From IMG/VR virus record IMGVR_UViG_2695420343_000002: a stretch of 46,924 bases of DNA; one strand, written 5' to 3'. Shown one piece after another: positions 688 to 20,161 of the stretch (its first letter is position 1; each line of letters begins with the position of its first letter). Below the pieces are notes generated by a model that searched no databases, was not told where the DNA came from, and worked only from the letters and a program-made list of their open reading frames with translations. This DNA comes from a virus (taxonomy: Duplodnaviria; Heunggongvirae; Uroviricota; Caudoviricetes). The position numbers and the translations under genes are program-made.

Positions 688-703
688 TGTAGGATATCCA
701 ACA
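688..703. promoter_or_regulatory. Operator-like 16-bp site TGTAGGATATCCAACA (copy of 40411-40426)
   Basis: Near-palindromic site between divergent cro-like and cI genes; same motif recurs downstream of cI. Confidence 0.45.
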
Positions 704-749
704 TACCAATGTCAAGAATCCTACATGGGCATGTGGTAGGATTGCCTAC

Positions 750-1400
750 ATGATGAACATGAGTGATCGTATTCGCCAAAGGCGAAAAGAACTGAACCTG
801 ACACAACAAGCACTGGCTGATTTGACTGGTGTGAACCGTGTCACGGTTACTGGATGGGAAAAGGACGACTACCAACCAAATGGAGCCAACCTTCAAGCCC
901 TAGCCAACGCACTTAAATGCGATCCTCTGTGGCTTGTTAGCGGAAAAGCTCGCCTGAACCAAAGATAAATCTAAAACCTGAAATATTCGCAGTTAAAAAA
1001 GTCCCCCTCATCTCGTGGTTCAGGCGGTTCATGGACAATGACGGAGCCTGGTGTCAGGAAAGAAGATGCTGAAGAGTGGGTTTATACTACCGCCCTTGTA
1101 TCAGAAATGGCATTTGCACTACGGGTCCGTGGTGATTCAATGACCAATCCCCTCGGCTCACCATCGATACCAGAAGGTTCTATCGTTATCGTAGAGCCAG
1201 ATATTATTGATACAGAGTGTATTAACGGAAAAATCGTTGTTGCCCATATCAATGGTGGGCAAGAAGCGACACTCAAAAAATTTGTTGAGGACTGGCCGAA
1301 CAGGTATCTCGTCCCACTAAATCCTAACTATAAAACTATTGAATGCGGTGAGAACTGCAGAATAGTTGGTCTTGTCAAACAAGTAATAATGGATTTTTGA
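750..1400 (+). pseudogene. CI-type prophage repressor (HTH + S24 peptidase), frame-broken copy of 40473-41126
   Basis: Track splits it into 750-968 and 1038-1400; copy B is one 217-aa ORF with the same residues. Confidence 0.55.
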
Positions 1401-1424
1401 CACATCTTCCTCACTATCGCAAAA

Positions 1425-1446
1425 CCGGGGTATCCCCGGTTTTTTT
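1425..1446 (+). terminator. Rho-independent terminator after cI (copy of 41151-41172)
   Basis: Hairpin CCGGGGTATCCCCGG followed by T7 run, 25 bp after the cI stop. Confidence 0.7.
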
Positions 1447-1463
1447 ATGAGCCTATCTTTTTA

Positions 1464-1514
1464 TGTAGGATAACCAACATAAACTCTTGACACTCACATG
1501 TTGGATATCCTACA
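1464..1514. promoter_or_regulatory. Inverted pair of operator-like sites flanking a TTGACA hexamer (copy of 41190-41240)
   Basis: TGTAGGATAACCAACA and TGTTGGATATCCTACA in inverted orientation, 18 bp apart. Confidence 0.45.
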
Positions 1515-1633
1515 TTTGTTTTTAGAGTTGTGGTGAATGCGCAGGCTGATGCGCGAAAGACATTGCAGCTATTGCGGAAAAGAGCTGTTCGGCGGGGCCA
1601 TTAAACGCCCGTATCTGGAGGTTAAAGAACAAA

Positions 1634-1909
1634 ATGAAAGTCCAGATTTTAAACAATAGTGGTGAAGTCGTTTGGTCATACGACATAGCCGCTCCTGTAG
1701 ATCAGAGCGGCGATAGCTGGACCAATGGGAAACATCAGATTATGGCTGGAGTTGTATTCTCTTTACGCCGTGCTTTGGAACAGGCTGAAGTATTTCCATC
1801 AGACCCTGAATGGAAATGGCCTTTTTCTATTTGTCCAAATTCGGAGAGCACATTTCAGAAAATTGGTCAGAAAGTCGCACTCGAAGAGCATCAGCCAACT
1901 GTTTCCTGA
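1634..1909 (+). CDS. Hypothetical protein downstream of cI (copy of 41360-41635)
   Basis: GGAGG 8 nt upstream of ATG; 91-aa ORF; no recognisable motif. Confidence 0.5.
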   Translation: MKVQILNNSGEVVWSYDIAAPVDQSGDSWTNGKHQIMAGVVFSLRRALEQAEVFPSDPEWKWPFSICPNSESTFQKIGQKVALEEHQPTVS

Positions 1910-2072
1910 TTTTTTCAGGTAACTCGTCGGCATCGCAGAAACAACAACGCTCGATCATGTTGAAAGCCGATTCGTAGAACTGTTTCTGCTGAGTGTCGCT
2001 GAGACAGGAAAAGAGCGACGTTACGATGATTTTATTAATTGCATTATCAAGTTCTTTTTCATCAAAAGTCAT
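1827..2072 (-). CDS. Hypothetical protein, convergent with and overlapping the previous ORF (copy of 41553-41798)
   Basis: AAGGA 7 nt upstream of ATG; 81-aa ORF; 83-nt 3' overlap with 1634-1909 leaves one of the two in doubt. Confidence 0.45.
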   Translation of the reverse strand: MTFDEKELDNAINKIIVTSLFSCLSDTQQKQFYESAFNMIERCCFCDADELPEKIRKQLADALRVRLSDQFSEMCSPNLDK

Positions 2073-2506
2073 TTGATTTTCCTTTTATGTATACGGGCTT
2101 AAAAGGATACCACCGAGCCTGAAGTGGTGAAAAGACAGGCACATAACAGCTAAGTATTTTCAACCAGAGAGAATCCTTAGCGTTGTGGTGAATGCGGCTC
2201 AGCGCACGCGGTTAAGGTTGAGGCTGACAGTCGACCTTCTGTGGATACCCACCCGCCTGGTGTGCAACCTTCGCCAGGCACCGGAGGCACCCGGCACCAC
2301 AACTTTATGCTGTGTGTAGTCCTCGCGGTACCAGTTTGTACACTTGCTTCCGGCTGGTACCGCTCTTTTACAAAACAGAGAAGAGCATCACCGGACGACG
2401 GGCTCATAACCCAATCCATCCGGGCGGCTGCCACCGCAGGTGTTCTTCTCTGTTTTGTGGAGAAACCAACCGACCTTGCAGGGTCGATATGATGAGGAGC
2501 AGCAAA

Positions 2507-2868
2507 ATGGCTAGCGAACGCAGTACTGATGTGCAGGCATTTATCGGGAGCTGGACGGCGGCGTATTTGAAACCAAAATCGGCGCAGTTCTCAGTGAAGT
2601 CGCTTCCGGTGTGATGAACACGAAAACCAAAGGGAAGGTCTCACTCAACCTGGAAATCGAACCATTTGATGAGAACCGTGTGAAAATCAAACACAAACTC
2701 TCATATATTCGCCCGACTAACCGCGGGAAAATTTCCGAAGAAGACACCACCGAAACGCCGATGTATGTCAATCGCGGTGGTCGCCTGACTATTCTGCAGG
2801 AAGACCAGGGACAATTACTGACTCTTGCCGGTGAACCTGACGGAAAACTCCGCGCAGCAGGTCATTAA
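2507..2868 (+). pseudogene. YfdP-like early protein, frame-broken copy of 42236-42598
   Basis: Track gives 2312-2614 and 2611-2868 in different frames; copy B has one ORF; difference is atcgggag vs atcggggag. Confidence 0.45.
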
Positions 2869-2933
2869 TATCGTTTTTAATAAACTGATTATTTATCTCA
2901 TCACTGAATATTTTTATATAGTGAGGACTTATT

Positions 2934-3758
2934 ATGTCTCAGAACTTAGACGCAACCGCAATTAATCAAATCCATGCCCTTATTTCTGCTCAGGGTGTTA
3001 ATGAAATTATCAGTAAGATTGGTGCCGATGCTGTGGCATTGCCTGAGAATTTCCGCATTCATGATCTGGAAAAATTTAATTTAAATCGCTTCCGTTTCCG
3101 TGGTGCGCTTTCCACTGCCAGCATCGATGACTTTACCCGTTATTCTAAAGATCTTGCAGATGAAGGCACCCGCTGCTTTATCGATGCTGATAATATGCGT
3201 GCCGTCAGTGTGCTTAACCTGGGTACTATTGATGAACCAGGTCACGCAGATAACACCGCCACACTCAAACTGAAAAAGACAGCACCGTTCTCTGCTCTGT
3301 TGTCTGTTAACGGCGAGCGTAACTCCCAGAAATCACTGGCAGAATGGATTGAAGACTGGGCCGACTACCTTGTGGGCTTTGATGCTAATGGTGACGCCAT
3401 TCAGGCAACAAAAGCGGCTGCGGCAATCCGTAAAATCACGATTGAAGCAAACCAGACCGCTGATTTTGAAGATAATGACTTCAGCGGCAAACGCTCCCTG
3501 ATGGAATCTGTCGAAGCGAAGACCAAAGACATTATGCCAGTGGCATTTGAATTTAAATGCGTTCCGTTTGAAGGTCTGAAAGAACGTCCGTTTAAATTAC
3601 GCCTCAGCATTATCACTGGCGATCGTCCTGTACTGGTTCTGCGCATTATTCAGCTGGAAGCAGTGCAGGAAGATATGGCTAACGAATTTCGTGATCTGCT
3701 TGTTGAGAAATTCAAAGACAGCAAAGTAGAAACCTTTATTGGTACTTTCACCGCCTGA
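2934..3758 (+). CDS. YfdQ-like phage early protein (274 aa)
   Basis: Intact 274-aa ORF; length and position after a YfdP-like gene match the KplE1 yfdPQRS block as I recall it. Confidence 0.75.
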
Positions 3759-3885
3759 TTTCATTACTGCAAATGCCCCTGCGGGGGCATTTATGGAAAC
3801 GTAATTAACTCAATAATCACCGGATGGTGAGGGCTTCCTTTTACCCAAACTCAGCGCGGTGCAGCGCATATACGTGGAGAACAAA

Positions 3886-4422
3886 ATGTCATTTATTAAA
3901 ACTTTTTCCGGGAAGCATTTTTATTATGACAGGATAAATAAAGACGACATCGATATTAACGATATCGCGGTTTCTCTTTCAAATATCTGTCGCTTTGCCG
4001 GTCATCTTTCGCACTTCTACAGCGTCGCCCAACATGCGGTTCTTTGCAGCCAGCTGGTGCCGCAGGAATTTGCTTTTGAAGCGTTAATGCATGATGCAAC
4101 AGAAGCGTATTGCCAGGACATTCCCGCACCACTGAAACGCCTTCTTCCTGACTATAAACAAATGGAAGAAAAAATAGACTCCGTAATCCGTGAGAAATAC
4201 GGATTACCCCCAGTTATGAGTACGCCCGTGAAATATGCCGATCTCATCATGCTGGCAACCGAACGCCGCGATCTCGGGCTTGATGATGGCTCTTTCTGGC
4301 CTGTACTGGAAGGTATCCCGGCAACAGAGATGTTCAACGTGATTCCACTGGCACCGGGCCATGCCTACGGGATGTTTATGGAACGCTTTAACGAGTTATC
4401 GGAGTTACGCAAATGCGCATGA
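3886..4422 (+). CDS. HD-domain phosphohydrolase (YfdR-like)
   Basis: H..H and HD motifs (SVAQHAV, ALMHDATEAY); ATG at 3886 has GGAGA 6 nt upstream; track start 3859 is a GTG. Confidence 0.75.
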   Translation: MSFIKTFSGKHFYYDRINKDDIDINDIAVSLSNICRFAGHLSHFYSVAQHAVLCSQLVPQEFAFEALMHDATEAYCQDIPAPLKRLLPDYKQMEEKIDSVIREKYGLPPVMSTPVKYADLIMLATERRDLGLDDGSFWPVLEGIPATEMFNVIPLAPGHAYGMFMERFNELSELRKCA

Positions 4423-4775
4423 ATGTTTTCGAAATGGAAGGGTTTCTTCGTGGGAGATGTGTACCGCGAGATCTGAAAGTAAATGAAACAGATGCTGAAT
4501 ACCTGGTGCGTAAATTCGATGCGCTTGAAGCTAAATGTGCAGCACAGGAAAACAAAGTAATACCAGTGTCAACTGAACTGCCACCAGCAAATGAAAGTGT
4601 TTTGTTATTCGATGCTAACGGAGAAGGCTGGCTAATTGGCTGGCGTTCTCTCTGGTACACCTGGGGACAAAAAGAAACCGGAGAATGGCAGTGGACATTT
4701 CAGGTCGGGGACCTTGAAAACGTCAATATCACTCACTGGGCAGTAATGCCAAAAGCACCGGAGGCTGGAGCATAA
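4413..4775 (+). CDS. DUF551-like protein (YfdS-like)
   Basis: 120 aa; C-terminal W-rich region ending NITHWAVMPKAPE resembles the DUF551 signature. Confidence 0.65.
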   Translation: MRMNVFEMEGFLRGRCVPRDLKVNETDAEYLVRKFDALEAKCAAQENKVIPVSTELPPANESVLLFDANGEGWLIGWRSLWYTWGQKETGEWQWTFQVGDLENVNITHWAVMPKAPEAGA

Positions 4776-5353
4776 TGACCACTTTTACTGACAAAGAACT
4801 GATTAAAGAAATTAAAGAGCGTATCAGCAGCCTTGACGTGCGAGACGATATTGAGCGCCGTGCTTATGAAATTGCACTGGCATCACTGGGAGCAGAACCT
4901 GTAAGCCAAACTTACAACTTGCCAGAATTAATCGAAGGCATGGAGGTTTCCATTGATGTAAGCACTTGTGATGCGGATTTAGGTAATCGCTATTTCGGTA
5001 CCGTCACCGAGGCGTTAGAACTTGATACTGCCAAGAATGGTTACATCCTCCTGGTTCAGGACGCAGAGCCAAACTTCGATATAAATGGCAACTCTCCGGT
5101 AACTCCGGATGGTTGGGTCATGGTGCCGAAGAAACTAACCGCTGAGAACGGCGCTAAGGGTGTGCTATCCGGTGAATTTTCAGAAACTACGTTTATAAGC
5201 TGCCCGGAATGCTTTGGCGATGATGATTGCGATACCTGCGACGGGAGCGGACGTATTGAAATTAAAGTGCCAGTCACGTGGTCGACCATAAAATCTATCT
5301 GGGATAAAGGTATCGAGTATTTTGCAGCAAAACCATCACAAGAGGTGAAGTGA
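4775..5353 (+). CDS. Hypothetical protein with C-terminal zinc-finger (CPEC...CDTCDGSG)
   Basis: 192-aa ORF; start overlaps previous stop (ATGA); CxxC plus CxxCxGxG motif. Confidence 0.65.
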   Translation: MTTFTDKELIKEIKERISSLDVRDDIERRAYEIALASLGAEPVSQTYNLPELIEGMEVSIDVSTCDADLGNRYFGTVTEALELDTAKNGYILLVQDAEPNFDINGNSPVTPDGWVMVPKKLTAENGAKGVLSGEFSETTFISCPECFGDDDCDTCDGSGRIEIKVPVTWSTIKSIWDKGIEYFAAKPSQEVK

Positions 5354-5925
5354 TGAACAACTTAATGATCGACCTTGAGACGATGGGGAAAAATAAGGAT
5401 GCACCGATCGTTTCCATTGGCGCGGTGTTCTTTACCCCAGAAACCGGTGACATCGGACAAGAATTCTATGCGGTTGTCAGCCTGGACAGTGCTATGAAGC
5501 AAGGAGCTACACCTGACGGCGATACCATCCTGTGGTGGTTGAAACAGAGCCCTGAAGCACGAGCTGCAATCTGTATTGATGATACTTTATCGATCAGCGA
5601 TGCACTCTCTGAATTGAGTCATTTCATTAATCAGCATGCAGACAATATAAAATATTTAAAAGTCTGGGGTAACGGGGCCACCTTCGACAACGTAATTTTA
5701 CGTGGAGCTTACGAGCGAGCAGGACAAATCTGCCCGTGGGCGTACTGGAATGACCACGATGTACGCACGATCGTTACGCTTGGGCGTTCCATCGGATTCG
5801 ACCCCAAAATGGACATGCCTTTCGATGGCGAACGGCACAACGCCCTGGCTGATGCCCGTCATCAGGCAAAATATGTTTCCGCTATCTGGCAGAAATTAAT
5901 TCCTGCCACCAGCACAGAATTATGA
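5350..5925 (+). CDS. DEDDh-type 3'-5' exonuclease
   Basis: MIDLETMG (D-x-E) near the N-terminus and H-x4-D near the C-terminus (HNALADARHQ). Confidence 0.7.
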   Translation: MMNNLMIDLETMGKNKDAPIVSIGAVFFTPETGDIGQEFYAVVSLDSAMKQGATPDGDTILWWLKQSPEARAAICIDDTLSISDALSELSHFINQHADNIKYLKVWGNGATFDNVILRGAYERAGQICPWAYWNDHDVRTIVTLGRSIGFDPKMDMPFDGERHNALADARHQAKYVSAIWQKLIPATSTEL

Positions 5926-5961
5926 TTTTCCCGGGTGCAGCCGGTTTTGATGGAGAAAATT

Positions 5962-6243
5962 ATGAACACCTTGTTTTTACTGATGGCTGAATTCAATACC
6001 CCAAACATTGAACTCTCAGCAGTTAGCCAAAAGTACTTTGGTATGAGTCCAGCCACGGCAGAAGCAAAAGCAAACGCTTGTAAGTTGCCCGTTCCAACAT
6101 ATCGCATCGGCACATCACAAAAAGCAAAACGTTGCATCAATATTCAAGATCTTGCGGAATACATAGACAAAAGGCGAGAAGAAGGACGTATCGAGTGGGA
6201 ACAGGTCAGAACAGTCAAACAGAAGGACAAAGAACATCACTAA
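5962..6243 (+). CDS. Excisionase-like DNA-binding protein (TorI/PrtN-like)
   Basis: Small protein starting MNTLFLLMAEF; last gene before the int junction; GGAGA 7 nt upstream of ATG at 5962. Confidence 0.5.
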   Translation: MNTLFLLMAEFNTPNIELSAVSQKYFGMSPATAEAKANACKLPVPTYRIGTSQKAKRCINIQDLAEYIDKRREEGRIEWEQVRTVKQKDKEHH

Positions 6244-6273
6244 AGAAAAAACCCGCCTGAAGGCGGGTTTTCA
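6243..6273. terminator. Bidirectional rho-independent terminator
   Basis: ACCCGCC-TGAA-GGCGGGT hairpin flanked by an A-run and a T-run, between convergent genes. Confidence 0.7.
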
Positions 6274-6290
6274 AAAAGCACCAGCTATGA

Positions 6291-6464
6291 TCATGCTGCT
6301 TTGCGACGACGAAGCTTACCCTGCTGCTCTTTACCAGAGACAGTAGCGTGAGTGAACGCATTAGGAGCAGCCTTCATCAGAACTTCAACAGCAGCACCCA
6401 TACCTGCGAATGCTTTCATTGTGTCGAACTTAACCTGTGGCTTGGTTGCTTTTTGATCTTTCAT
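6291..6464 (-). CDS. Small basic protein, 57 aa, hypothetical (below track cutoff)
   Basis: Translated by hand: MKDQKATKPQVKFDTMKAFAGMGAAVEVLMKAAPNAFTHATVSGKEQQGKLRRRKAA; GGGAG 8 nt upstream of ATG. Confidence 0.5.
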   Translation of the reverse strand: MKDQKATKPQVKFDTMKAFAGMGAAVEVLMKAAPNAFTHATVSGKEQQGKLRRRKAA

Positions 6465-6535
6465 AGAAAACTCCCGAGACAGTAAAGGCGTCTCTAACCC
6501 TTTCTTTAAAGCTAGCTTGTTTCGCTAACTTATGC

Positions 6536-6556
6536 CAATCGATCATGTCGATTGGT
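6536..6556. promoter_or_regulatory. Palindrome CCAATCGA-N5-TCGATTGG upstream of the small ORF
   Basis: Perfect 8-bp inverted arms, 5-bp spacer, about 70 bp upstream of the 6464 start codon. Confidence 0.4.
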
Positions 6557-6660
6557 GACATCGTTTCTTAGTAGTTTAAGCACAAAACGACTGCCATAGA
6601 TGTACCTTTAAGGTAATCTGGACGGGTATCCTACAATTTGTAGACCCTTCTCGTCTATAC

Positions 6661-7197
6661 CTACTGAGCAAATTTAAGAAAGATATCCTGCAGCTCATCA
6701 ATGACTGCCGACATCACATAACCGCACTGTTCCATGCGGAAACCAAAAGACTCGTAATACTGCACCAGTTCTGGTACTGGCTCTACAATGTGGACAACTT
6801 TACATTCAACAGCTTTACAAAATATAAAAGCACTCATAAGAGTGAGTAAAACCATGCGCCCTTTCAATGGGTGAGATTCATCTTCTCTAGAAAACCTTTC
6901 GATCATATGGATACGAAAGATGTTTTCTTCAACCCCATAAACACAAATTGCTGCTCCTGATGGTATTCCCTGAACCCGACCTTGCTGAACAAGTTTTATG
7001 CAGAACTCATACTTTTCTCTGGAGTTGCCATAGGTACTTAACGCATAGTCCCATTCAAGCTCACCATAGCCACCACACAGAATCTTGTAATCATCATCAC
7101 TGAGCGGACCAACAGCAAGAGGTAAGCCGACATGATCAATAATCAACTGGATATTGTTACGTACTGATTGACCTATCTCGTCCAGGGTAAGCATCAT
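6661..7197 (-). CDS. Putative GNAT-fold N-acetyltransferase (accessory gene)
   Basis: 178-aa ORF; C-terminal YYESFGF resembles the GNAT motif; looks AT-rich by eye; no search run. Confidence 0.5.
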   Translation of the reverse strand: MMLTLDEIGQSVRNNIQLIIDHVGLPLAVGPLSDDDYKILCGGYGELEWDYALSTYGNSREKYEFCIKLVQQGRVQGIPSGAAICVYGVEENIFRIHMIERFSREDESHPLKGRMVLLTLMSAFIFCKAVECKVVHIVEPVPELVQYYESFGFRMEQCGYVMSAVIDELQDIFLKFAQ

Positions 7198-7533
7198 GGC
7201 CTCTCAAGCGGAACACTAAAAGTCGCATTATATCTCATTCTTAAGCCGCGTATGGATTACACCTTGAAATGAAAACGCCGGGTTCCCAATAGGCTCCCAC
7301 AGAGTGTATAACTGCTTGTTTTTCAACAACGGTACATCCTATCAAGCATAGGAGCAATGCTAAACCGAGAATTCCAGTAAACACCAGTTTTTTCAGGCAT
7401 CACGCTGGTTTGATTAATTTTTTGTGTTTCATGATTATCGTGCATTTTTGAACATTTCAGGCTATTTTTCTCGCGTTAGGTTCCCGCACAGGTTCCCACG
7501 TTTTATGGGAACCCGAAATAACGAGGTCGTGTA
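7198..7533. other. Noncoding region upstream of int with GGTTCCC repeats; candidate attP or integrase arm-site region
   Basis: GGTTCCC appears three times in direct orientation plus once inverted (GGGAACC) within 60 bp of the int start. Confidence 0.3.
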
Positions 7534-8631
7534 ATGGCGTACTATAACATAGAGAAACGACTAAAATCCGATGGCACACCACGCTATCGCTGTAATGTGA
7601 TTATCAAAGAAAAAGGTGTTATCACTTACAGGGAAAGCAAAACATTCCCTAAACATGCTCATGCCAAAACATGGGGCACACAGAAAGTGATGGAATTAGA
7701 TCTATATGGCATTCCATCATCAAATGCAGTTGACGGACTTACAGTCCGTGACTTACTACACAAATATTTAAATGACCCAAATGCCGGAGGTAAAGCAGGC
7801 CGTACTAAAAGATATGTGCTGGAACTGCTTATGGATAGTGACATCTCCGCGATCAAACTATCTGAACTGACAGAAAATGACGTAATTGAACATTGCAGGC
7901 TAAGAAACAACGCTGGTGCAGGTCCTGCAACAGTCAGCCACGATGTTAGTTATCTTGGCAGTGTTCTGGATGCGGCCAAACCTGTATACGGAATTAATTA
8001 CACATCAAACCCGGCGAAAAGCGCTCGCCCATATCTACTTAAACTTGGTTTGATTGGTAAATCAAACCGTCGTAATCGTAGACCAGCATCTGATGAACTG
8101 GACATGCTCATTGCAGGCCTTCAACAACGATCTACTCATAAATGCTCAAAAATTCCGTTCGTTGATATCCTCAAATTTTCTGTATGGTCCTGTATGCGAA
8201 TCGGAGAAGTATGCCGGTTACGATGGGAAGATCTCGACCAGGAACAAAAATCTATACTCGTAAGAGACAGGAAAGATCCACGCAAAAAGGAAGGTAACCA
8301 CATGAAAGTAGCCTTGCTTGGGGAAGCCTGGGATATCGTCCAACGACAGCCCCAAAAATCGGAATTCATTTTTCCATATAACAGCACTTCTGTTACTGCG
8401 GGATTTCAGAGAGTAAGAAGCAAATTAGGTATTAAGGATCTGCGATACCATGATTTGCGTAGAGAAGGGGCAAGTCGCTTATTTGAGGCTGGTTTTAGTA
8501 TTGAGGAAGTCGCCCAAGTTACAGGGCATCGTTCATTAAACGTGCTATGGCAGGTATATACCGAACTGTATCCGAAATCTTTACATAATCGTTTTGAAGA
8601 GCTCCAAAGGAGCAGAAATAAGACCTCTTGA
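7534..8631 (+). CDS. int: Tyrosine-type phage integrase
   Basis: 365 aa; RYHDLRREGAS box and GHRS...VLWQVYTELY tyrosine region; ACGAGG upstream of ATG. Confidence 0.9.
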   Translation: MAYYNIEKRLKSDGTPRYRCNVIIKEKGVITYRESKTFPKHAHAKTWGTQKVMELDLYGIPSSNAVDGLTVRDLLHKYLNDPNAGGKAGRTKRYVLELLMDSDISAIKLSELTENDVIEHCRLRNNAGAGPATVSHDVSYLGSVLDAAKPVYGINYTSNPAKSARPYLLKLGLIGKSNRRNRRPASDELDMLIAGLQQRSTHKCSKIPFVDILKFSVWSCMRIGEVCRLRWEDLDQEQKSILVRDRKDPRKKEGNHMKVALLGEAWDIVQRQPQKSEFIFPYNSTSVTAGFQRVRSKLGIKDLRYHDLRREGASRLFEAGFSIEEVAQVTGHRSLNVLWQVYTELYPKSLHNRFEELQRSRNKTS

Positions 8632-9289: not shown

Positions 9290-9985
9290 ATGAAAAAGGA
9301 AATACTCAAGGCTCTTTGCCCTACATGCGGTGGGTTACGTAACTGCACTGTGCATGGGAAGCTAACCACTAGCTGGGAGGATTCCCAATATCCAGTTTAT
9401 GGGTACCATTACCATCACCTACTCCAATGCAATGGCTGTGATACTGTCTTCTATCACCACAACGAACACTTCAGTGAGCATACTACCCACGAATATCGTG
9501 ATGGTGAATTTGTAGAAACGCCTATAGATATGATCACTACCTATCCTGCCGCTGAAACATTTCAAGCTCCGATATGGTTATCCAAGCTTGAATCAGTTGA
9601 TCGTCAGCTCTTTCAAATATTTAATGAAATGTATTCTTCATATACTTCTGACCATTTCATTCTTTCGTCCATCGGTTTACGGACGATTTTTGATCGAACT
9701 GCTGAACTGTTACAAATTCACCCCGGTTTGCCGCTTGGTGAAAAAGTTGAAAAATTAAAACAAGATGGAGTCATAGGCGACACTGAGGCATGCGTTATAT
9801 CTTCAGTAATTGATGCAGGAAACGCCGCCGCACATCGCAGTTGGAGCCCGAATAAAAGTGAGTTCGAACAAATGCTAGAAGCTATAGAAAGTTTTGTCCA
9901 AAGAACTATCTTGGGCAAAAAATCACTTGAACATATAACCAAACAACTCCCACCTCGGGTTACAAGACCTAAAAATAGTGCATAA
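9290..9985 (+). CDS. Zinc-ribbon plus DUF4145-like domain protein (candidate accessory or defence gene)
   Basis: N-terminal CPTCGG...C..H...CNGC; C-terminal GLRTIFDRTAELL...LGEKVEKLKQDGVI...IDAGNAAAHRS fits my recollection of DUF4145; AT-rich by eye. Confidence 0.55.
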   Translation: MKKEILKALCPTCGGLRNCTVHGKLTTSWEDSQYPVYGYHYHHLLQCNGCDTVFYHHNEHFSEHTTHEYRDGEFVETPIDMITTYPAAETFQAPIWLSKLESVDRQLFQIFNEMYSSYTSDHFILSSIGLRTIFDRTAELLQIHPGLPLGEKVEKLKQDGVIGDTEACVISSVIDAGNAAAHRSWSPNKSEFEQMLEAIESFVQRTILGKKSLEHITKQLPPRVTRPKNSA

Positions 9986-10011
9986 TCCGCGATCATCAAT
10001 GTGGCGTAAGG

Positions 10012-10604
10012 CTATGGTTTACTTGCTACAGGGAATTTTTTATACACCGTTGAAATACCCAGATCATAAATCAGTGCGACTTGCTGCTGATATATTCCCG
10101 ATTCAATCAACCTGCCAGCCTGCCCCCATTGTTCTACTGTCAGCTTTGGCTTTCGCCCACCGTTCCTCCCTTCTTGTCGTGCTGCGGCAAAGCCGCCCTA
10201 GTACGTTCGACAATAAACTCTCGCTCCATTTCAGCCAGGGCACCCATCACATGAAAGAAAAAGCGCCCCATTGGTGTGCTGGTATCAATAGCATCCGTCA
10301 GGCTGCGAAAATTAACGCCACGTTCGCGCAACTCTTCCACCAGCACGACAAGATGCCGCATACTGCGCCCCAGTCGGTCCAGTTTCCAGACCACCAGCGT
10401 GTCACCTGCCGATAATGTCCTGAGCAGCTTTTTCAGTCCTGGTCTGTCGGACTTTGTACCGCTTATCTTGTCTTCAAAAATCAGCTCACATCCTGCACAG
10501 TTCAACGCATTACGTTGTAGATCGGTGTTCTGGTCATTTGTTGATACGCGAACATAGCCAATAAGCATGATTGCTCCTCCTGACAAAAACAGGAACGATG
10601 CCAT
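10012..10604 (-). CDS. Pin/Gin/Hin-family DNA invertase, frame-broken
   Basis: N-terminal MLIGYVRVSTNDQNTDLQRNAL catalytic domain (track 10140-10604); the HTH tail GRNGGRKPKLTVEQW...STVYKKFP is in another frame down to 10012; shift lies in a G-run near 10186-10199. Confidence 0.7.
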
Positions 10605-15344: not shown

Positions 15345-16423
15345 CAGAACGGGTCCTCCTGTACTCTGGCTTTTTTCTTTTTCCGCGCGCCGGGGGCTTC
15401 GGGTTCAGGCAGATAAGCATCAGGTGGGCCGACACGGATTTCCGTCAGGGTGCCGTTCTGGTCCTGAGTAAACGTGACTTCCGAAACAAGCAGTTCGGTA
15501 TTGTCGAAACCACAGACCGGATCAAAGACAATCACCCGCTGGTTGGGCTGCCACAGCGTACCGTTACCCTGTCGCCAGCCCTGCACCACATAGGTGGTTT
15601 CATCCGTCCGCGCCGCCCGTTGTCGGGCTTCAAAGTCCGCACGGGCAATACAGCCTGCCCCCGTAGCCTGCCCTGTCTGCCTGATATACATCGGACGGTA
15701 ACGGGCAATAAATGCGTCCTCTGTGCGGGCCCGCAGCGCGGTGGTGGTGGCCTCACCGAAATCATCGTCGTTTCCGGCACGCTGCCCCGCCACCTGGTAA
15801 ACAGAAAACCGCTCCCGGATACTCTTCTCCGTATCGCAGGAAAGGATGTTTTCCCCGAGTACCAGCGCAGTATGTGCCCGCGTTGAGCCAATACCGCCAA
15901 TCACCAGCCTGCCGTGCGGGTCGTCGTAAGCCAGTGCCTGCTGCTGACCGAGTATTTTGTTGATTACCTCAATCACCGTTTCACCGTGATCAGGCTGGAC
16001 ATCAGGAATAACACCCGACGGCGCACCGTTGTTCACCACCTCAATGCCGAAAGGCGCAGCAAGCGCCTGCGCAATCTGTACCAGCGATCGTCCGTTAAAC
16101 TGTGTCGGTTCGGCTGCACAGTCAATCAGGTCAGCCGTCAGACTACGTCCGGCAATACCGGTGCTGACCGAACGGGCATCGTAACGAACGGGGGTCGCCT
16201 CCACCCAGCCGGTGATCACCAGCTCATCACCAATCAGCACTTCCACTTTTGAACCATTTTTAATGCGCGGCTGAAGCGTGGTGATACCCTCATCTCCCGG
16301 CCACTGGCGGGTGATCTCCACGCTGAAATCCCGCGCCAGCCGTTCAATACCGGCACCGATGCGCACCGATGTCCAGCCATTCCACTCCCGGCCATTTACC
16401 CGTAGCGTGACGTTATCGTTCAT
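15344..16423 (-). CDS. Mu gpP-like baseplate/tail protein
   Basis: 359 aa; follows the DNA-circulation gene as in Mu. Confidence 0.6.
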   Translation of the reverse strand: MNDNVTLRVNGREWNGWTSVRIGAGIERLARDFSVEITRQWPGDEGITTLQPRIKNGSKVEVLIGDELVITGWVEATPVRYDARSVSTGIAGRSLTADLIDCAAEPTQFNGRSLVQIAQALAAPFGIEVVNNGAPSGVIPDVQPDHGETVIEVINKILGQQQALAYDDPHGRLVIGGIGSTRAHTALVLGENILSCDTEKSIRERFSVYQVAGQRAGNDDDFGEATTTALRARTEDAFIARYRPMYIRQTGQATGAGCIARADFEARQRAARTDETTYVVQGWRQGNGTLWQPNQRVIVFDPVCGFDNTELLVSEVTFTQDQNGTLTEIRVGPPDAYLPEPEAPGARKKKKARVQEDPF

Positions 16424-17880
16424 TGCACTGGCACCTTCAGAGGGATCACCGGCACAAAGCCGGGATGCGTAATGGCATTACGCCGGATAATGTCCGCGTC
16501 ACGCGCCGCGTTATCAAACCAGGTCGCCGCCAGCACCAGCGCGGGTAAGACCTCATCCGGCGTGCGCTGAATGATCCGAGCAGACTGTTCAAGGCGCGTG
16601 TTGATATCCGCATTCAGATCTGCTTTCACCCGGCGCAGCGCCAGAAACAGCGCATCACTGGTTGTACGGGACAACTCCTTATCAATTGCCGTATTCAGTG
16701 TGTCGCGAATGTCAGTCAGTTCTTCCCACGTTGGCAGGTCAACCGTGTTTTTCACCGCCGGTGCATTGTTCAGTGCCGGATGCGTGACGGAAGGCCAGCC
16801 GGTGCTCTGCGCGGAAGTTGTTGACTGCCCCACTGCGGCATTCTGCATCACCGCGGAAGTTGTTGACTGCCCCACTGCGGCATTCTGCATCACCGCGGAA
16901 GTTGTTGACTGCCCCACTGCGGCATTCTGCATCACCGCGGAAGTTGTTGGCGCAGGCAATCGGGTGACGGCATACGCCGCTTCGCTGATTGCGGTCGCAC
17001 GAAGGGTGCTGGCAACCACGTTACGCTGCTGCGTCGCCGTGGCGGTGGTTTTACTGTCCGTTTTCCAGACGCCGCGCGGTTGCAGATCGCTGCCGAGGCT
17101 GACACCGGAAAGCGTTTTGATCATGGTGACCAGGTCGCTGGCGTTACCATAAAGGCGTTTCCCGGTACGCCACATTTTCTGCACCTGCTCAACGAAATTT
17201 TTGCCTGACGATGGCGGCGGCAGAAGTACCGAGATATCCCCCTGCAACAGCCTGGCGGCATCCGATACGGCAGAATCCACCACTTTCATCGCATCAGAAA
17301 CATACCCCAGCATTATGCTGGCATTACCGATAACGTCGTTCTGCACGAAATCCGCCACACCATCGATACTGAAACCGCTGAAGCTGTCACTGATGCAGTC
17401 ATCCAGTGCAGAACAGGATGACATCAGCGTCTGCGCCGTCGCCGCACCTGATGTGGGGTAAGAGAGTTCTCCCGCTTCGACAAACTTCAGGTCAAAGCGG
17501 ACAATACGCCCTTCACTTTTCGATGTGCTGACCCGAACCTCTCCGTCAACACAGACTTTCAGCTCACCGTAAGTCGGGTGGACAAGCGTGCCGGGACCGG
17601 GTTTATTCAGCGCGTCAATCAGGCGATCGCGCTGGTCAAAGCAGTCATCGCCCACCACATAAGCCGTGATGGACGGGCGGAAAGTGACTTTTCCCAGATC
17701 TTCGGTATAGGGTTTGTCGCGGTTCGGATATTCGTGTGTTTCCACACGGCGACCTGTTCCCGCACTTTCTTCTTCAACCTTAAACGGCACACCGCGAAAT
17801 GACGCGTCCTGAAGCCTGTCTTTCCACGTCATATAAACTCCGGATATAAAAAAGCCCACCGAAGTGGGCATGAAAGACAT
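16420..17880 (-). CDS. DNA circulation protein (Mu gpN-like)
   Basis: 486 aa directly downstream of the tape-measure region; contains three in-frame repeats AVMQNAAVGQSTTS. Confidence 0.65.
   Translation of the reverse strand: MSFMPTSVGFFISGVYMTWKDRLQDASFRGVPFKVEEESAGTGRRVETHEYPNRDKPYTEDLGKVTFRPSITAYVVGDDCFDQRDRLIDALNKPGPGTLVHPTYGELKVCVDGEVRVSTSKSEGRIVRFDLKFVEAGELSYPTSGAATAQTLMSSCSALDDCISDSFSGFSIDGVADFVQNDVIGNASIMLGYVSDAMKVVDSAVSDAARLLQGDISVLLPPPSSGKNFVEQVQKMWRTGKRLYGNASDLVTMIKTLSGVSLGSDLQPRGVWKTDSKTTATATQQRNVVASTLRATAISEAAYAVTRLPAPTTSAVMQNAAVGQSTTSAVMQNAAVGQSTTSAVMQNAAVGQSTTSAQSTGWPSVTHPALNNAPAVKNTVDLPTWEELTDIRDTLNTAIDKELSRTTSDALFLALRRVKADLNADINTRLEQSARIIQRTPDEVLPALVLAATWFDNAARDADIIRRNAITHPGFVPVIPLKVPVQ
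16811..16950. repeat. 42-bp tandem repeat, about 3.3 units, in-frame within the gpN-like gene
   Basis: GAAGTTGTTGAC recurs at 16814, 16856, 16898 and 16940. Confidence 0.85.
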
Positions 17881-17895
17881 AAATTAATGTAAGGT

Positions 17896-18273
17896 TTACC
17901 CTGCTATTTTTTGAGCCAGATGAGCCTGCAATTTATAAATGTTTGCTCCTTTACTGAACTGTTTTTTTATCGGTTCTGCAATACCAGAAATCCATATCTT
18001 CATTTCAGCATCAAGATCAAGATGCCCGGCGGTTTCAATAGAAAAGTTTGTCACAGATTTATAAGGAATCGAACGATACTCTACTTTTTTCCCTGTGACA
18101 CCCTGCTTATCAATAAAAATTAACCTTCTGTTAGTCAGAATAATTTGGTCACGAATGAGTTTATAGGCAAGTTCGACATTTTCTCCCTCACCTAAAACAG
18201 CCCCTAATTCCTGTTGTGCATCTGATGCATTAATTTCACCGGCATTACCTATAATGGCATGTAACAGACCCAT
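17896..18273 (-). CDS. PH-like domain protein (bacterial PH-domain-like), moron inside the tail module
   Basis: ILTNRRLIFIDKQG...VEYRSIPYKSVTNFSIE...LDLDAEMKIWISG pattern; AT-rich by eye; likely start MGLLHAII with GAAGGGA RBS (track ORF extends to 18354). Confidence 0.55.
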   Translation of the reverse strand: MGLLHAIIGNAGEINASDAQQELGAVLGEGENVELAYKLIRDQIILTNRRLIFIDKQGVTGKKVEYRSIPYKSVTNFSIETAGHLDLDAEMKIWISGIAEPIKKQFSKGANIYKLQAHLAQKIAG

Positions 18274-18325
18274 AGATTTCCCTTCAGTTGATAACAAACT
18301 TAAAGACAAATTATATCTGGTTCCG

Positions 18326-20161
18326 TCATCTGCCAATATGCGTATAGCCAACATCGTGATTTATATCAAAACCGCTGGATCGCGTTTCCATAACCCGCAT
18401 ACCCGGAGGCGAATTCACAAAAGAGACCTTGATCTCACCGTCAACTTTTGGCGCAGAAGCTTTGTTAATCATGAAGGGATTCGGGCCTGTAGCATCGGAG
18501 GCGTTGTTTGACTGAGCCGGATCTACCGCCGGATAAGGTGTGTATCCCCGTGGCGGTATTCCCGTCCCATAAGCATCATAAGCACCCGCGCCCCACTGCG
18601 CCGAGTTAATGGCATCGACCGTGTCACCGGAACTGTCGGTAAACCACTCAATAATTGGCTTCAGCTTGTCCCACATATCCTGAAACCACTTAACAACCGG
18701 TCCCCAGTTATTGATTACCATCCCCAGCGGCGACCAGGCAAAAACCTTCTTCAGAAGTTCCCAGCCAGCCTCAAAATAAGGACCAATGGTTTCCCAGAGC
18801 TTCTTGAAATAAGGTCCAACAACATCCCAGTTAGTGATAATTAATCCCGCAGCCAAGGCAATCGCCGTCGCAATCATGCCAATCGGCGTCATCGACATGA
18901 TCCTGCTGACGATACTGATGGCACTGCCCACGCCCATCAATCCCAGTTTCAGAATCGCAAGACCGGCAGCAAGCCCGACGACGCCGCGAATAACCCGGGG
19001 ATTTTCATCCGCAAACTTCGTGAATTTTTCCCCCAACTCCCCCAGCCATTGCGTGATATTTTTGGCGTCACCAGAAAATGCGCCGCCAATAGCCGCAAGG
19101 CCGTTAGTTGCGGTCCCCGTCATTGCCTCCCACAGGTTGGACAGCGTACCAAGCTGTGCCTGAACACGTTTATTCAGGCTGGCCTGTTTATTCATCTTCT
19201 GCTGGATCTGATCGTAGCCATCCTTTCCTTTATCGATTAGTGCATTGACCACCTGAAGGGTTTCGGCATCATCACCAAATATTGCCTTAAGTACACCTGT
19301 TCGCTTAACGTCGGTCAGTTTTCGCAGCTTTGCCAGTTGCCTGAACATGTTATCAAGACCGCCAAAACTTCCTTTGCCGTCAGTAAAATCGAGCTGTACC
19401 CCGAGTCTCTGGCGGGCCATGACTTTATTGACGTCCCTGATTTTCTTAACGCTTAATCCGGACTGGATAACTTTTCGCAGGGCATTACCTGCCGACTCCC
19501 CGTTCATCCCCATCTGATCCATCATGACGCTGATGGGGGCAAGGCTCTGTGCAGCCTGAAGACCGTCCTTGTTCACCATCTTCAGAACAGAACTGGTTTT
19601 AGTGAAGAAGGACAACATGTTGGTATCGTCAACGCCCAGATAAAACGCCTTCTGGATAGTGTCGAACAGCCCCATCATGTCTTCTGACGCCGTTCCGGTA
19701 GCATCCTGCATCTTTGCAGCAAACTCAGCAGCCGCTTCCGGTGTTTTTTTCAGTTGTACCGCAAGATAAGCTGTCGCTTTACCCACACCACCAAGAATGT
19801 TTTCTGCCGGGATCCCCTGACGCACCAGCATCTGCATCATGTTCTGGAAATCAGCCGTTGTACCGGGTAGCTGGTTACCCAGGCCAATAGCCAGTTTATT
19901 GATGTCCTGAAAGCTCTTTCCAACCTCGCCGTTCGCATCCATCATGGCGACTTTCAGCCCGGTGGCGGCGTTTTCCTGATCGGCATAAGATTTCAGGGAA
20001 AGCGTCAGACCCGCTGCCAGTCCGCCACCAAGCGCCAGCCCACCCTGTGACGCTTCTTCCGCCTGGCGTTTAAATCCCCGGATTTTCTTTTGCATTTTCG
20101 ACAGCGCGGGAGAAAGCCTGTCGACACCGGTGATCAACGCCTTAAGCTCAAATTCAGCCAT
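18326..20161 (-). CDS. Tail tape measure protein
   Basis: 611 aa, helical and Gly/Ala-rich, preceded by a frameshifted chaperone pair. Confidence 0.85.
   Translation of the reverse strand: MAEFELKALITGVDRLSPALSKMQKKIRGFKRQAEEASQGGLALGGGLAAGLTLSLKSYADQENAATGLKVAMMDANGEVGKSFQDINKLAIGLGNQLPGTTADFQNMMQMLVRQGIPAENILGGVGKATAYLAVQLKKTPEAAAEFAAKMQDATGTASEDMMGLFDTIQKAFYLGVDDTNMLSFFTKTSSVLKMVNKDGLQAAQSLAPISVMMDQMGMNGESAGNALRKVIQSGLSVKKIRDVNKVMARQRLGVQLDFTDGKGSFGGLDNMFRQLAKLRKLTDVKRTGVLKAIFGDDAETLQVVNALIDKGKDGYDQIQQKMNKQASLNKRVQAQLGTLSNLWEAMTGTATNGLAAIGGAFSGDAKNITQWLGELGEKFTKFADENPRVIRGVVGLAAGLAILKLGLMGVGSAISIVSRIMSMTPIGMIATAIALAAGLIITNWDVVGPYFKKLWETIGPYFEAGWELLKKVFAWSPLGMVINNWGPVVKWFQDMWDKLKPIIEWFTDSSGDTVDAINSAQWGAGAYDAYGTGIPPRGYTPYPAVDPAQSNNASDATGPNPFMINKASAPKVDGEIKVSFVNSPPGMRVMETRSSGFDINHDVGYTHIGR

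What the first reader, a model, noticed from the sequence alone, without database searches (positions are those of the whole stretch)
17896..18354. AT-rich PH-like-domain gene inserted inside the Mu-like tail module
Between the tape-measure gene (ends 18326) and the DNA-circulation gene (starts 17880) sits a roughly 125-aa ORF whose sequence follows a bacterial PH-domain-like pattern. In Mu-type tails these two genes are normally adjacent, so this is an insertion, and its visibly AT-rich composition contrasts with the GC-rich tail genes on both sides. A small soluble PH-like protein carried as a moron inside a structural operon, expressed either late with the tail or from its own promoter in the lysogen, is not something the phage backbone explains; superinfection exclusion or an anti-defence role are both plausible.
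Basis: partly seen in the sequence, partly recalled or inferred. Interest (0 to 1): 0.7.

Follow-up and report, generated by a model that had tools for sequence, protein, structure and literature searches.

The report
Bacterial PH-domain moron in phage tail operon
A small, AT-rich gene for a ring-forming "bacterial PH domain" protein of unknown function has been added between two tail genes of an E. coli temperate phage, at a spot where related phages carry nothing or other accessory genes; it is a real but fairly ordinary accessory gene ("moron").

Summary
A 125-aa gene (17896-18273, minus strand) lies between the tape-measure gene and gene N (DNA-circulation/baseplate hub) of an SfV-like phage. 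Its GC is 37.8% (GC3 28.6%), against 52-58% (GC3 56-64%) in the neighbouring genes.

The protein is a full-length member of Pfam bPH_1/PF08000 (E 3e-48). It is about 60% identical to the solved pentameric PHb1 structures 3DCX and 3HSA and keeps all eight residues of their acidic binding site.

It is an insertion. The junction is empty in SfII, SfV, SfI and most E. coli prophages. Only 28 of 5,426 complete genomes carry the gene. The same slot holds three other unrelated cargos, all envelope-targeted.

An 89%-identical copy sits at the same junction in Edwardsiella phages, with dN/dS of 0.02-0.03, so the protein is maintained by selection.

Elsewhere, phage bPH_1 genes usually sit in lysogeny modules next to repressor and integrase. 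Xu et al. noted this in 2010.

Its function is unknown for the whole family. The most likely role is a lysogen-benefit factor acting at the inner face of the envelope, through phage exclusion or envelope protection. That is inference. Its own promoter is unproven.

This is a new member of a known kind and of moderate interest.

The parts
17896..18273 (-). PH-domain (bPH_1/PHb1 group 1) gene: 125 aa, soluble, 13.7 kDa
   Evidence: PF08000 E 3.1e-48 over the full length. phrog_7115 E 6e-54. E 4e-39 to 3DCX/3HSA. The eight acidic-site residues are retained and there is no transmembrane segment. Model and Foldseek results.
18279..18285 (-). Ribosome-binding site GAAGGGA, 5 nt upstream of ATG 18273
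   Evidence: Read directly from the sequence. The GAAGGG core is conserved in the Edwardsiella-phage copies.
18310..18336 (-). Candidate sigma-70 promoter: TTGGCA (18336-18331, overlapping the last TMP codons), 15-nt spacer, TATAAT (18315-18310). Unproven.
   Evidence: Best-scoring site in a relaxed scan. Missed by the standard scan, which requires a 16-18 nt spacer. The -10 element is TATAAC in the Edwardsiella copies.
17848..17869 (-). Intrinsic-terminator-like hairpin GCCCAC-UUCG-GUGGGC followed by U6, lying between the PH stop codon and the gene N start
   Evidence: Terminator scan and fold. Identical in EPP-1 and L008. SfII has a homologous hairpin in which the outer G-C pair is changed to U-A on both sides; it is annotated there as a putative rho-independent terminator.
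17848..18368 (-). Approximate extent of the foreign cassette: the last ~45 nt of TMP, a 52-nt spacer, the PH gene, a 26-nt spacer and the hairpin
   Evidence: In alignment A2 the window follows the Edwardsiella-phage version here, not the SfII version. Outside this stretch it is about 97% identical to SfII.
18326..20161 (-). Tail tape-measure protein gene (upstream neighbour)
   Evidence: PF10145 E 1e-26. PHROG tape-measure families.
16420..17832 (-). Gene N homologue (DNA circularisation / baseplate hub; downstream neighbour). True start is 17832.
   Evidence: PF07157 E 3e-34. phrog_184 baseplate hub. Start confirmed by alignment with SfII and SKA5 and by the RefSeq CDS length.

Best explanation
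The gene is a moron, a horizontally acquired accessory gene. It sits in a variable cargo slot between the tape-measure gene and gene N of an SfV-like temperate phage with a lambdoid early region and a Mu-type tail.

It encodes a group-1 bacterial PH-domain protein (PHb1, PF08000) captured from a bacterial chromosome.

Shown:
- The family and the fold.
- Retention of all eight residues of the acidic binding site, which in the crystal structures forms between subunits.
- Absence from most sister phages.
- Foreign base composition.
- Strong purifying selection while the gene has been phage-borne.
- A terminator hairpin immediately downstream.

Inferred:
- The protein forms the same C5 dome-shaped pentamer as its ~60%-identical solved relatives.
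- It uses the acidic site at the base of the ring to bind a basic segment of a partner protein at the cytoplasmic face of the inner membrane.
- It is not part of the virion.
- It is made in the lysogen, from a weak promoter of its own that overlaps the end of the tape-measure gene, and also during late transcription, when Q antitermination reads through the hairpin.
- It benefits the lysogen, most likely by excluding other phages at or after genome entry. Protection against envelope stress is the close second.

Confidence splits as follows: about 0.9 that it is a functional, non-structural moron encoding a PHb1 ring protein; about 0.5 that it acts for the lysogen at the envelope; about 0.3-0.35 that this is specifically phage exclusion.
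For: Family and fold.

Insertion:
- The junction is empty in SfII, SfV and SfI.
- The gene is in 28 of 5,426 E. coli genomes, against 1,097 genomes that carry the flanking tail genes.
- GC 0.378 against 0.52-0.58 in the neighbours.

Cargo slot: the same junction holds three other cargos.
- A signal-peptide protein, in 85 genomes.
- A lipoprotein with an LLGGC lipobox, in 55 genomes.
- A membrane-anchored OB-fold protein on the opposite strand, in 72 genomes.

Selection:
- 89-90% identical copies occupy the same junction in Edwardsiella phage EPP-1 and in an Edwardsiella prophage.
- dN/dS is 0.016-0.03 with synonymous sites saturated.
- The nearest chromosomal homologue is only 72% identical.

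Expression in the lysogen, by analogy:
- In 59 other distinct viral-contig contexts the gene's neighbours are mainly cI-type HTH repressors (20), S24 and M78 peptidases, tyrosine integrases (14) and serine recombinases.
- Known exclusion or abortive-infection cargo (Ltp, Abi_2, SIR2) lies nearby in some of them.
- ul36 and a Vibrio 186-like phage show the same arrangement.
- Xu et al. 2010 noted this.

Membrane link for cellular homologues: YvbH is peripheral-membrane and YozO belongs to the sigma-W regulon (Xu et al. 2010).

Precedents: HK97 gp15, a tail-operon moron derived from a bacterial gene that acts as an exclusion protein, and Tab of JBD26.

Antitermination: a Q-type antitermination protein is annotated in the collinear prophage.
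Against: - No canonical promoter was found. The candidate has a 15-nt spacer and is not fully conserved.
- The gene lies on the late-operon strand, upstream of a hairpin that is also present at empty sites. Late co-transcription alone could therefore explain its expression.
- There is no transmembrane segment or signal peptide, unlike classical exclusion proteins and unlike the other three cargos.
- No PADLOC model matches it.
- No PF08000 member has a demonstrated function.
- The only phage PH-type protein labelled 'sie' (bIL285 Orf2) is bPH_3+SHOCT, a distant relative. The text I could read does not report a resistance phenotype for it.
- I found no other PF08000 gene in E. coli at the DNA level, so any cellular partner is unidentified.
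- Four of the 28 copies are disrupted by IS1.
Confidence: 0.45

Rival explanations
1. It serves the phage during lytic growth. On this reading it is transcribed only with the tail genes, as part of the Q-antiterminated late operon. It would counter a host defence that senses late proteins, or buffer the envelope until programmed lysis. It would have no role in the lysogen.
For: It is on the same strand as the tail genes, 52 nt after the tape-measure stop codon, with a strong ribosome-binding site. It lies upstream of the hairpin that also follows the tape-measure gene at empty sites. The standard scan finds no promoter. Purifying selection fits any function.
Against: About 97% of E. coli prophages with the same tail lack it and are presumably viable. 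Isolated phages SfII, SfV and SfI lack it. In most other phages the family sits in lysogeny modules, co-oriented with the repressor and integrase. One alternative cargo at this slot is antisense to the late operon and so must be expressed independently.
Confidence: 0.2
2. It is a lysogenic-conversion factor unrelated to phages. It would give E. coli a cell-envelope stress protein that the species otherwise lacks, for example tolerance to membrane-active antimicrobials, bacteriocins or alkaline shock. This would mirror the sigma-W-controlled YozO of Bacillus.
For: YozO is induced by antibiotics, heat and alkaline shock under sigma-W, and PHb1 homologues are found in membrane or insoluble fractions (Xu et al. 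2010). The protein is 60-66% identical to chromosomal copies across phyla and keeps the whole binding site, which suggests the ancestral molecular activity is retained. E. coli shows no other copy detectable by DNA search.
Against: No phenotype is known for any family member. The partner may be absent from E. coli. The other cargos in lysogeny-module slots (Ltp, Abi_2, SIR2) point to phage conflict rather than general stress.
Confidence: 0.2
3. It is a structural or assembly component of the Mu-type tail, for example a tape-measure or baseplate-hub accessory.
For: Its position between the tape-measure gene and gene N, and its conservation at that position in Edwardsiella phages.
Against: It is absent from SfII, SfV, SfI and most related prophages. 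The slot holds unrelated alternative cargos. C5 ring symmetry does not match 3- or 6-fold tail symmetry (Xu et al. 2010). The closest relatives outside phages are stand-alone chromosomal genes. The GC content is foreign.
Confidence: 0.03
4. It is a neutral hitch-hiker with no current function in the phage.
For: It is rare (28 genomes). Four copies are interrupted by IS1 after nucleotide 89 of the coding sequence.
Against: dN/dS is 0.016-0.03 between E. coli and Edwardsiella phage alleles whose synonymous sites are saturated. The reading frame, ribosome-binding site and all conserved site residues are intact.
Confidence: 0.07

Closest known systems
PHb1, group 1 of Pfam PF08000 (bPH_1, formerly DUF1696): Shewanella proteins 3DCX and 3HSA; B. 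subtilis YjqA, YozO, YvbH (Xu et al. 2010, PMC2817789)
   Same: Single domain of about 125 aa and about 60% identical over the full length. Same predicted fold (TM 0.82-0.87). All eight residues of the inter-subunit acidic site are retained, as is Arg50 at the oligomer interface.
   Different: It is carried by a phage, inside a tail operon, in a host species (E. coli) where I found no chromosomal copy by DNA search. It is AT-rich relative to its surroundings. Oligomeric state was not tested here.
Phage-borne PHb1 genes in lysogeny modules: Lactococcus ul36 ORF124, Microbacterium Min1 ORF77, a Vibrio 186-like phage
   Same: Same Pfam family (E 1e-36 to 1e-39). Small stand-alone gene in a temperate phage. 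Function unknown.
   Different: These sit between the integrase and the repressor, or at the genome end, co-oriented with the lysogeny genes. The window gene sits between the tape-measure gene and gene N, on the late-operon strand. Identity is only 33-45%.
HK97 gp15 moron (Juhala 2000; Cumby 2012; review PMC3594210)
   Same: A small gene added within a tail operon next to the tape-measure gene. Deviant composition. Followed by a terminator. Derived from a bacterial chromosomal gene family. The host phage uses lambdoid late regulation.
   Different: gp15 is a YebO-like inner-membrane protein with proven prophage expression and proven exclusion activity. The window protein is soluble, belongs to a different fold family, and neither expression nor activity has been tested.
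Lactococcal 'sie285' (bIL285 Orf2), described as a PHb-domain protein
   Same: A PH-like domain protein in a temperate-phage accessory slot, reported in the lysogen proteome (PMC6127208).
   Different: It matches bPH_3 (PF14470) plus SHOCT, not bPH_1. It shares only 27% identity over 62 residues. The accessible text reports resistance for sie309 and sie312, not for sie285.
Accessory-gene and defence hot spots of temperate phages: P2 and P4 hot spots (Rousset 2022, cited in PMC10884400); Tab of JBD26
   Same: A fixed junction between conserved genes that carries alternative, unrelated cargo genes in otherwise near-identical phages.
   Different: No cargo at this junction matches a known defence model. 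Every cargo here is a single small gene. I found no published description of this particular junction.

Membership tests
Pfam PF08000 / PHb1 group 1 | Scores above the curated Pfam threshold over the whole model | tested here: met
   163.2 bits against a cut-off of 27.7; model positions 2-121 of 122.
Pfam PF08000 / PHb1 group 1 | Single-domain protein of about 125 aa with no C-terminal helical arm (group 2) and no N-terminal extension (group 3) | tested here: met
   125 aa. It aligns end to end with 3HSA and with 45 homologues.
Pfam PF08000 / PHb1 group 1 | PH fold: seven-stranded beta-sandwich capped by a C-terminal helix | tested here: met
   AlphaFold2 model with pLDDT 83, seven main strands (33-106; an extra short strand at 12-14) and a C-terminal helix at 112-124. 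Foldseek best match 3DCX_A, TM 0.82/0.87, followed by eukaryotic PH domains.
Pfam PF08000 / PHb1 group 1 | Conserved acidic binding site formed by two protomers (D42, D55, Q57, K63, E80, D86, D88, E90 in PHb1(sl)) | tested here: met
   All eight residues are identical. Of the perimeter residues, R41, V59, T60 and T81 are kept and F85 is Leu.
Pfam PF08000 / PHb1 group 1 | C5 dome-shaped pentameric ring | not testable with these tools
   Only monomer prediction was available. Inferred from about 60% identity to 3DCX and 3HSA.
Moron (Juhala/Hendrix definition, as given in PMC3594210) | Extra DNA at a junction where closely related phages have adjacent genes | tested here: met
   SfII, SfV and SfI span 1868 bp for the same flanks, against 2301 bp here. 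Most E. coli prophages with this tail are also empty at the junction.
Moron (Juhala/Hendrix definition, as given in PMC3594210) | Base composition differs from the surrounding genes | tested here: met
   GC 0.378 and GC3 0.286, against 0.52-0.58 and 0.56-0.64 in the neighbours.
Moron (Juhala/Hendrix definition, as given in PMC3594210) | Own terminator | tested here: met
   A GC-rich hairpin with a UUCG loop followed by U6, 26 nt after the stop codon. Caveat: a homologous hairpin is also present at empty junctions, so it is a feature of the slot, not of this cargo.
Moron (Juhala/Hendrix definition, as given in PMC3594210) | Own promoter that allows expression from the repressed prophage | tested here: inconclusive
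   The standard scan found none. The relaxed scan found TTGGCA-N15-TATAAT. The -10 element is TATAAC in the Edwardsiella copies. No expression data were available.
Superinfection-exclusion proteins (HK97 gp15, P22 SieA, Sie2009, Ltp) | Targeted to the envelope by a transmembrane helix, signal peptide or lipobox | tested here: not met
   The maximum 19-residue Kyte-Doolittle mean is 0.58, and there is no N-terminal hydrophobic segment. The other three cargos at this slot do have such signals.
Superinfection-exclusion proteins (HK97 gp15, P22 SieA, Sie2009, Ltp) | Blocks genome entry of superinfecting phage when expressed from the prophage | not testable with these tools
   Needs phage challenge and DNA-entry assays.
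Known anti-phage defence systems (PADLOC-DB v2) | Matches a model of a known or candidate defence protein | tested here: not met
   No family at E <= 1.
Mu-type tail structural or assembly proteins | Present at the syntenic position in related tails | tested here: not met
   Absent from SfII, SfV, SfI, SKA5 and most related prophages.

The most novel reading that the evidence does not exclude
PHb1 rings may be a widespread, so far unrecognised class of prophage-encoded phage-exclusion or defence proteins. On this reading the soluble pentameric 'cap' docks at the cytoplasmic face of the inner membrane and interferes with tape-measure-mediated genome delivery, or with another late step, of incoming phages. 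That would give the first function to PF08000. It would also make the tape-measure/gene N junction of SfV-like phages a defence hot spot with at least four unrelated single-gene cargos, none of which is in current defence catalogues.
Probability: 0.2. Interest if true: 0.65.

Novelty: new member of a known kind. Interest (0 to 1): 0.35.

Why it matters
PF08000 is a highly conserved small-protein family, 60-66% identical between Gammaproteobacteria and Firmicutes. It has had crystal structures since 2008-2009 and still has no known function.

Three things here make that function testable:
- A phage-borne copy under strong purifying selection.
- A genetically tractable E. coli prophage.
- A host that lacks a chromosomal paralogue detectable by DNA search.

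Natural comparators also exist: empty junctions, alternative cargos and IS1-disrupted copies.

The tape-measure/gene N junction is occupied in roughly a quarter of SfV-like prophages, by four unrelated small genes. It is a compact place to look for new lysogenic-conversion or exclusion functions.

If nothing comes of it, this is simply one more moron of unknown function.

Tried and rejected
- Single-sequence AlphaFold2 gave an unusable model (pLDDT 36). I replaced it with an alignment-based model.
- PADLOC gave no match for the PH protein or for the three alternative cargos.
- The standard promoter scan found nothing.
- Literature searches for PF08000, DUF1696 and YjqA returned only Xu et al. 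2010 as relevant. Searches for 'PH domain-containing protein' with prophage and defense, and for WP_001514801, found nothing useful.
- Mahony et al. 2008, on lactococcal sie genes, is not held. I therefore could not check directly whether bIL285 Orf2 confers resistance.
- I considered using 'sie285' as a functional precedent and rejected it as a close analogue. It is bPH_3+SHOCT and only 27% identical over 62 residues.
- Tab and Tai, two tail-assembly-interference defences, were checked as possible relatives. Neither mentions a PH domain, and they are encoded elsewhere in their phages. They are precedents only.
- I considered a PH+SIR2 two-gene system, seen in one Vibrio phage. SIR2 was a neighbour in only one of 59 contexts, so I did not pursue it.
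- The Rfam and tRNA scans found nothing in or near the locus.
Full report
**1. What is there**

On the minus strand the longest ORF runs 17896-18354 (152 aa). The supported gene is 17896-18273 (125 aa).
- The Pfam match begins at residue 3 of the 125-aa version.
- All homologues are about 125 aa and begin MG(L/I/F).
- A GAAGGGA ribosome-binding site lies 5 nt upstream.
- RefSeq annotates a 378-nt CDS in identical copies.

The tape-measure (TMP) gene is 18326-20161 (PF10145).

The downstream gene is the Mu gene N homologue (PF07157 DNA_circ_N; phrog_184 baseplate hub). Its real start is ATG 17832 (MTWKD, GGAG ribosome-binding site), not 17880. The longer reading would run through a terminator hairpin. 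The 1413-nt length also matches the RefSeq CDS.

The window as a whole is an SfV/SfII/SfI-like temperate phage.
- It has lambdoid early, lysis and head genes, a Q-type antiterminator and a Mu-type contractile tail.
- Its gene order looks vegetative: the integrase gene at 7534-8631 lies between early genes and tail-fibre genes.

**2. Composition**

The PH gene has GC 0.378 and GC3 0.286. TMP, P, tube and sheath have GC 0.52-0.58 and GC3 0.56-0.64. Gene N was scored out of frame in that call, but the 200-nt windows across it read 0.53-0.63. The 200-nt profile falls to 0.37-0.39 only across 17800-18300. The AT-richness is real and local.

**3. Identity of the protein**

- PF08000 (bPH_1): E 3.1e-48, full length.
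- phrog_7115, function unknown: E 6e-54.
- E 4e-39 and about 60% identity to the solved Shewanella PHb1 proteins 3DCX and 3HSA.
- An AlphaFold2 model built with 45 homologues has pLDDT 83. It shows a beta-sandwich with a C-terminal helix.
- Its best PDB matches are 3DCX and 3HSA (TM 0.78-0.87), then PHb2 (3B77), then eukaryotic PH domains.

Xu et al. (2010, PMC2817789) showed that PHb1 forms a C5 dome-shaped ring. A conserved, mostly acidic site at the base of the ring is built from two neighbouring protomers. All eight of its residues are present here (D42, D55, Q57, K63, E80, D86, D88, E90), as is R50 at the interface.

The protein has no transmembrane segment or signal peptide.

More precisely, this is an orthodox group-1 PHb1.

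**4. It is an insertion in a cargo slot**

With 2.3 kb spanning the junction as the query, phages SfII, SfV and SfI match both flanks at 96-97% identity. They span 1868 bp instead of 2301 bp, so the PH gene is missing.

Among 5,426 complete E. coli genomes:
- 1,097 match the flanking tail genes.
- Only 28 carry the PH gene, all at least 99% identical, even with sensitive blastn.
- In four of those 28 the gene is split by IS1 after nucleotide 89 of the CDS.

The same junction holds other cargos:
- A 170-aa protein with a signal peptide (phage SKA5; 85 genomes).
- A 225-aa lipoprotein with an LLGGC lipobox (55 genomes).
- A 128-148-aa OB-fold (PF12869) protein with an N-terminal membrane anchor, encoded on the opposite strand (72 genomes).

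I checked the junction location of these three cargos only in the loci I fetched, so the genome counts may include copies elsewhere. In an evenly spaced sample of 60 hits, about two thirds of the junctions with both flanks were empty. None of the cargos matches a PADLOC model.

**5. Anatomy of the cassette**

Alignment with SfII and with the Edwardsiella-phage copies shows the following.
- The last ~45 nt of the window's TMP gene, the 52-nt spacer, the PH gene and the 3' spacer follow the Edwardsiella-type sequence.
- Outside about 17848-18368 the window is SfII-like.
- Downstream of the PH stop codon lies GCCCAC-UUCG-GUGGGC followed by U6. It is identical in the Edwardsiella phages.
- SfII has the homologous hairpin directly after its TMP stop. 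Its outer G-C pair is replaced by U-A on both sides, and GenBank annotates it as a putative rho-independent terminator.
- The hairpin therefore belongs to the slot. Cargo sits between the TMP stop codon and the hairpin.

The standard scan finds no sigma-70 promoter. The best candidate is TTGGCA (overlapping the last TMP codons), a 15-nt spacer, then TATAAT. The -10 element is TATAAC in the Edwardsiella copies.

From established knowledge of lambdoid phages, Q-modified RNA polymerase reads through such terminators. The hairpin would therefore not block late expression of gene N onwards. It would terminate any promoter-initiated transcript in a lysogen. This step is inference.

**6. Origin and selection**

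- The nearest relatives (88-90% aa identity) occupy the same TMP/N junction in Edwardsiella phage EPP-1 and in an Edwardsiella prophage. Their tail genes are only 69-76% identical in nucleotide sequence to the window's.
- The nearest non-phage relative, from Edaphovirga, is 72% identical. Copies from Photobacterium, Clostridium, Paenibacillus and Bacillus are about 60-66% identical. The two whose surroundings I examined (Edaphovirga and Photobacterium aphoticum) are stand-alone chromosomal genes.
- Between the E. coli and Edwardsiella phage alleles, synonymous sites are saturated (pS 0.71-0.75) while pN is 0.06-0.07. That gives dN/dS of 0.016-0.03.

The gene has therefore been kept as a working protein during a long period of residence in phages. 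It is not a fresh or decaying passenger.

**7. Where phages usually carry this family**

A scan of IMG/VR returned 80 loci.
- Thirteen are of the SfV or Edwardsiella type.
- The other 67 represent 59 distinct contexts. Many lie within 0-3 kb of a contig end.

Pfam scans of the two ORFs on each side gave these counts.
- Downstream (94 proteins): 14 tyrosine integrases, 2 serine recombinases, 2 Ltp lipoproteins, 2 Abi_2, 1 SIR2_2 and 1 GtrII.
- Upstream (85 proteins): 20 HTH_3 repressors (7 with Peptidase_S24, 6 with Phage_CI_repr), 5 Peptidase_M78 and 3 Schlafen/AlbA_2.

Annotated examples agree.
- ul36 ORF124 lies between the integrase and the repressor block.
- A Vibrio 186-like phage has cI, then PH, then a SIR2-like gene, then int.
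- Min1 gp77 lies at the genome end.

Xu et al. already noted PHb1 in the lysogeny modules of ul36 and Min1. The tail-operon location here is thus the unusual feature, not the presence of the family in a temperate phage.

**8. Mechanism**

Shown:
- Family, fold and an intact binding site.
- Non-structural status.
- A cargo-slot location.
- Purifying selection.

Inferred:
- Pentameric ring.
- Binding of a basic protein segment through the acidic base. Xu et al. predicted this and speculated that the dome caps a membrane-associated complex.
- Expression in the lysogen.

The balance of context points to a lysogen-benefit function at the envelope:
- Lysogeny-module placement in other phages.
- Envelope-targeted alternative cargos at this slot, one of them antisense to the late operon.
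- Membrane-fraction and sigma-W links for the cellular homologues.
- The HK97 gp15 precedent of a tail-operon moron, derived from a bacterial gene, that excludes phages.

I rank phage exclusion first (about 0.3-0.35) and envelope-stress protection second (about 0.2). A purely late, phage-benefit role is a serious rival (about 0.2), because the gene lies on the late strand and no good promoter is visible. A structural role (about 0.03) and neutrality (about 0.07) are unlikely.

**9. Comparison with the known**

It is a member of PF08000 group 1, since every testable defining feature is met.

It fits the definition of a moron on three of four criteria, with the promoter unresolved.

It does not meet the envelope-targeting feature of classical exclusion proteins, and it matches no catalogued defence protein.

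The lactococcal 'sie285', which the literature describes as a PHb protein, is bPH_3+SHOCT and only distantly related. The accessible text reports resistance only for sie309 and sie312. It is therefore not a functional precedent.

**10. Verdict**

Novelty: a new member of a known kind. RefSeq already labels the protein 'PH domain-containing protein'.

The useful additions are:
- The TMP/N junction is a multi-cargo slot.
- The phage-borne copy is under strong purifying selection.
- This offers a tractable route to a first function for PF08000.

Interest 0.35.

Noticed in passing
window 16810-16949 (inside gene N): A perfect 42-bp tandem repeat, 3.3 copies, encoding repeated TSAVMQNAAVGQST. Gene N is 1413 nt here but 1329 nt in SKA5, a difference of exactly two repeat units. 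This looks like copy-number variation in the baseplate-hub/DNA-circulation protein.
   Followed up: partly
window about 18527-18631, compared with L014 21633-21647: The tape-measure gene is 1836 nt here but 1956 nt in the otherwise 99%-identical prophage of strain 730V1. The overlapping BLAST segments indicate a 120-nt duplication or deletion (40 aa). That would be expected to change tail length slightly.
   Followed up: partly
L010 1144-1590 (+), L013 1062-1448 (+), L011 1087-1764 (-), L002 3924-4436 (-): Three other unrelated cargo genes occupy the same tape-measure/gene N junction in E. coli prophages. They are a membrane-anchored OB-fold (PF12869) protein antisense to the tail operon, a 225-aa lipoprotein, and a 170-aa signal-peptide protein. 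They occur in 72, 55 and 85 complete genomes respectively, and none matches PADLOC.
   Followed up: partly
L005 3950-6237 (Vibrio phage 10N.286.45.B12_PE001): A bPH_1 gene sits 84 bp upstream of, and on the same strand as, a 612-aa SIR2-like protein, between cI and int. The SIR2-like protein matches PADLOC Argonaute-associated SIR2 and PDC-S65 models. SIR2 was a neighbour in only one of the 59 viral-contig contexts, so this may be chance adjacency.
   Followed up: partly
window 18184/18185 equivalent, in NZ_CP075062, NZ_CP117717, NZ_CM142896 and NZ_LR890651: In four genomes IS1 is inserted in the PH gene after nucleotide 89 of the CDS. These are natural knock-outs usable as comparators.
   Followed up: no
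NZ_AP023208.1 (70,209-bp record typed as a plasmid), 64479-64856: One copy of the PH gene, with its flanking tail genes, lies on a 70-kb record classed as a plasmid. It could be a phage-plasmid, an excised phage or an assembly artefact.
   Followed up: no
window 9290-10415 (+): Two ORFs lie between the integrase gene (7534-8631) and the tail-fibre genes: a 231-aa DUF4145 protein and a 145-aa protein with no Pfam match (GC about 0.40-0.51). From my own knowledge, SfV-family phages carry their serotype-conversion genes at this position. It is probably another accessory slot.
   Followed up: no
window 41878-42100 (+): Rfam match to the sRNA STnc100 (RF02076): 49.1 bits against a gathering score of 47. 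It lies in the early or immunity region.
   Followed up: no
window 1-8631 and 10972 onwards: The gene order is early genes, then int, then accessory ORFs, then tail fibres. This is the vegetative (attP-joined) order of a lambdoid genome, not that of an integrated prophage with int at one end. The window may therefore be a whole, circularly permuted phage genome of about 46.9 kb.
   Followed up: no
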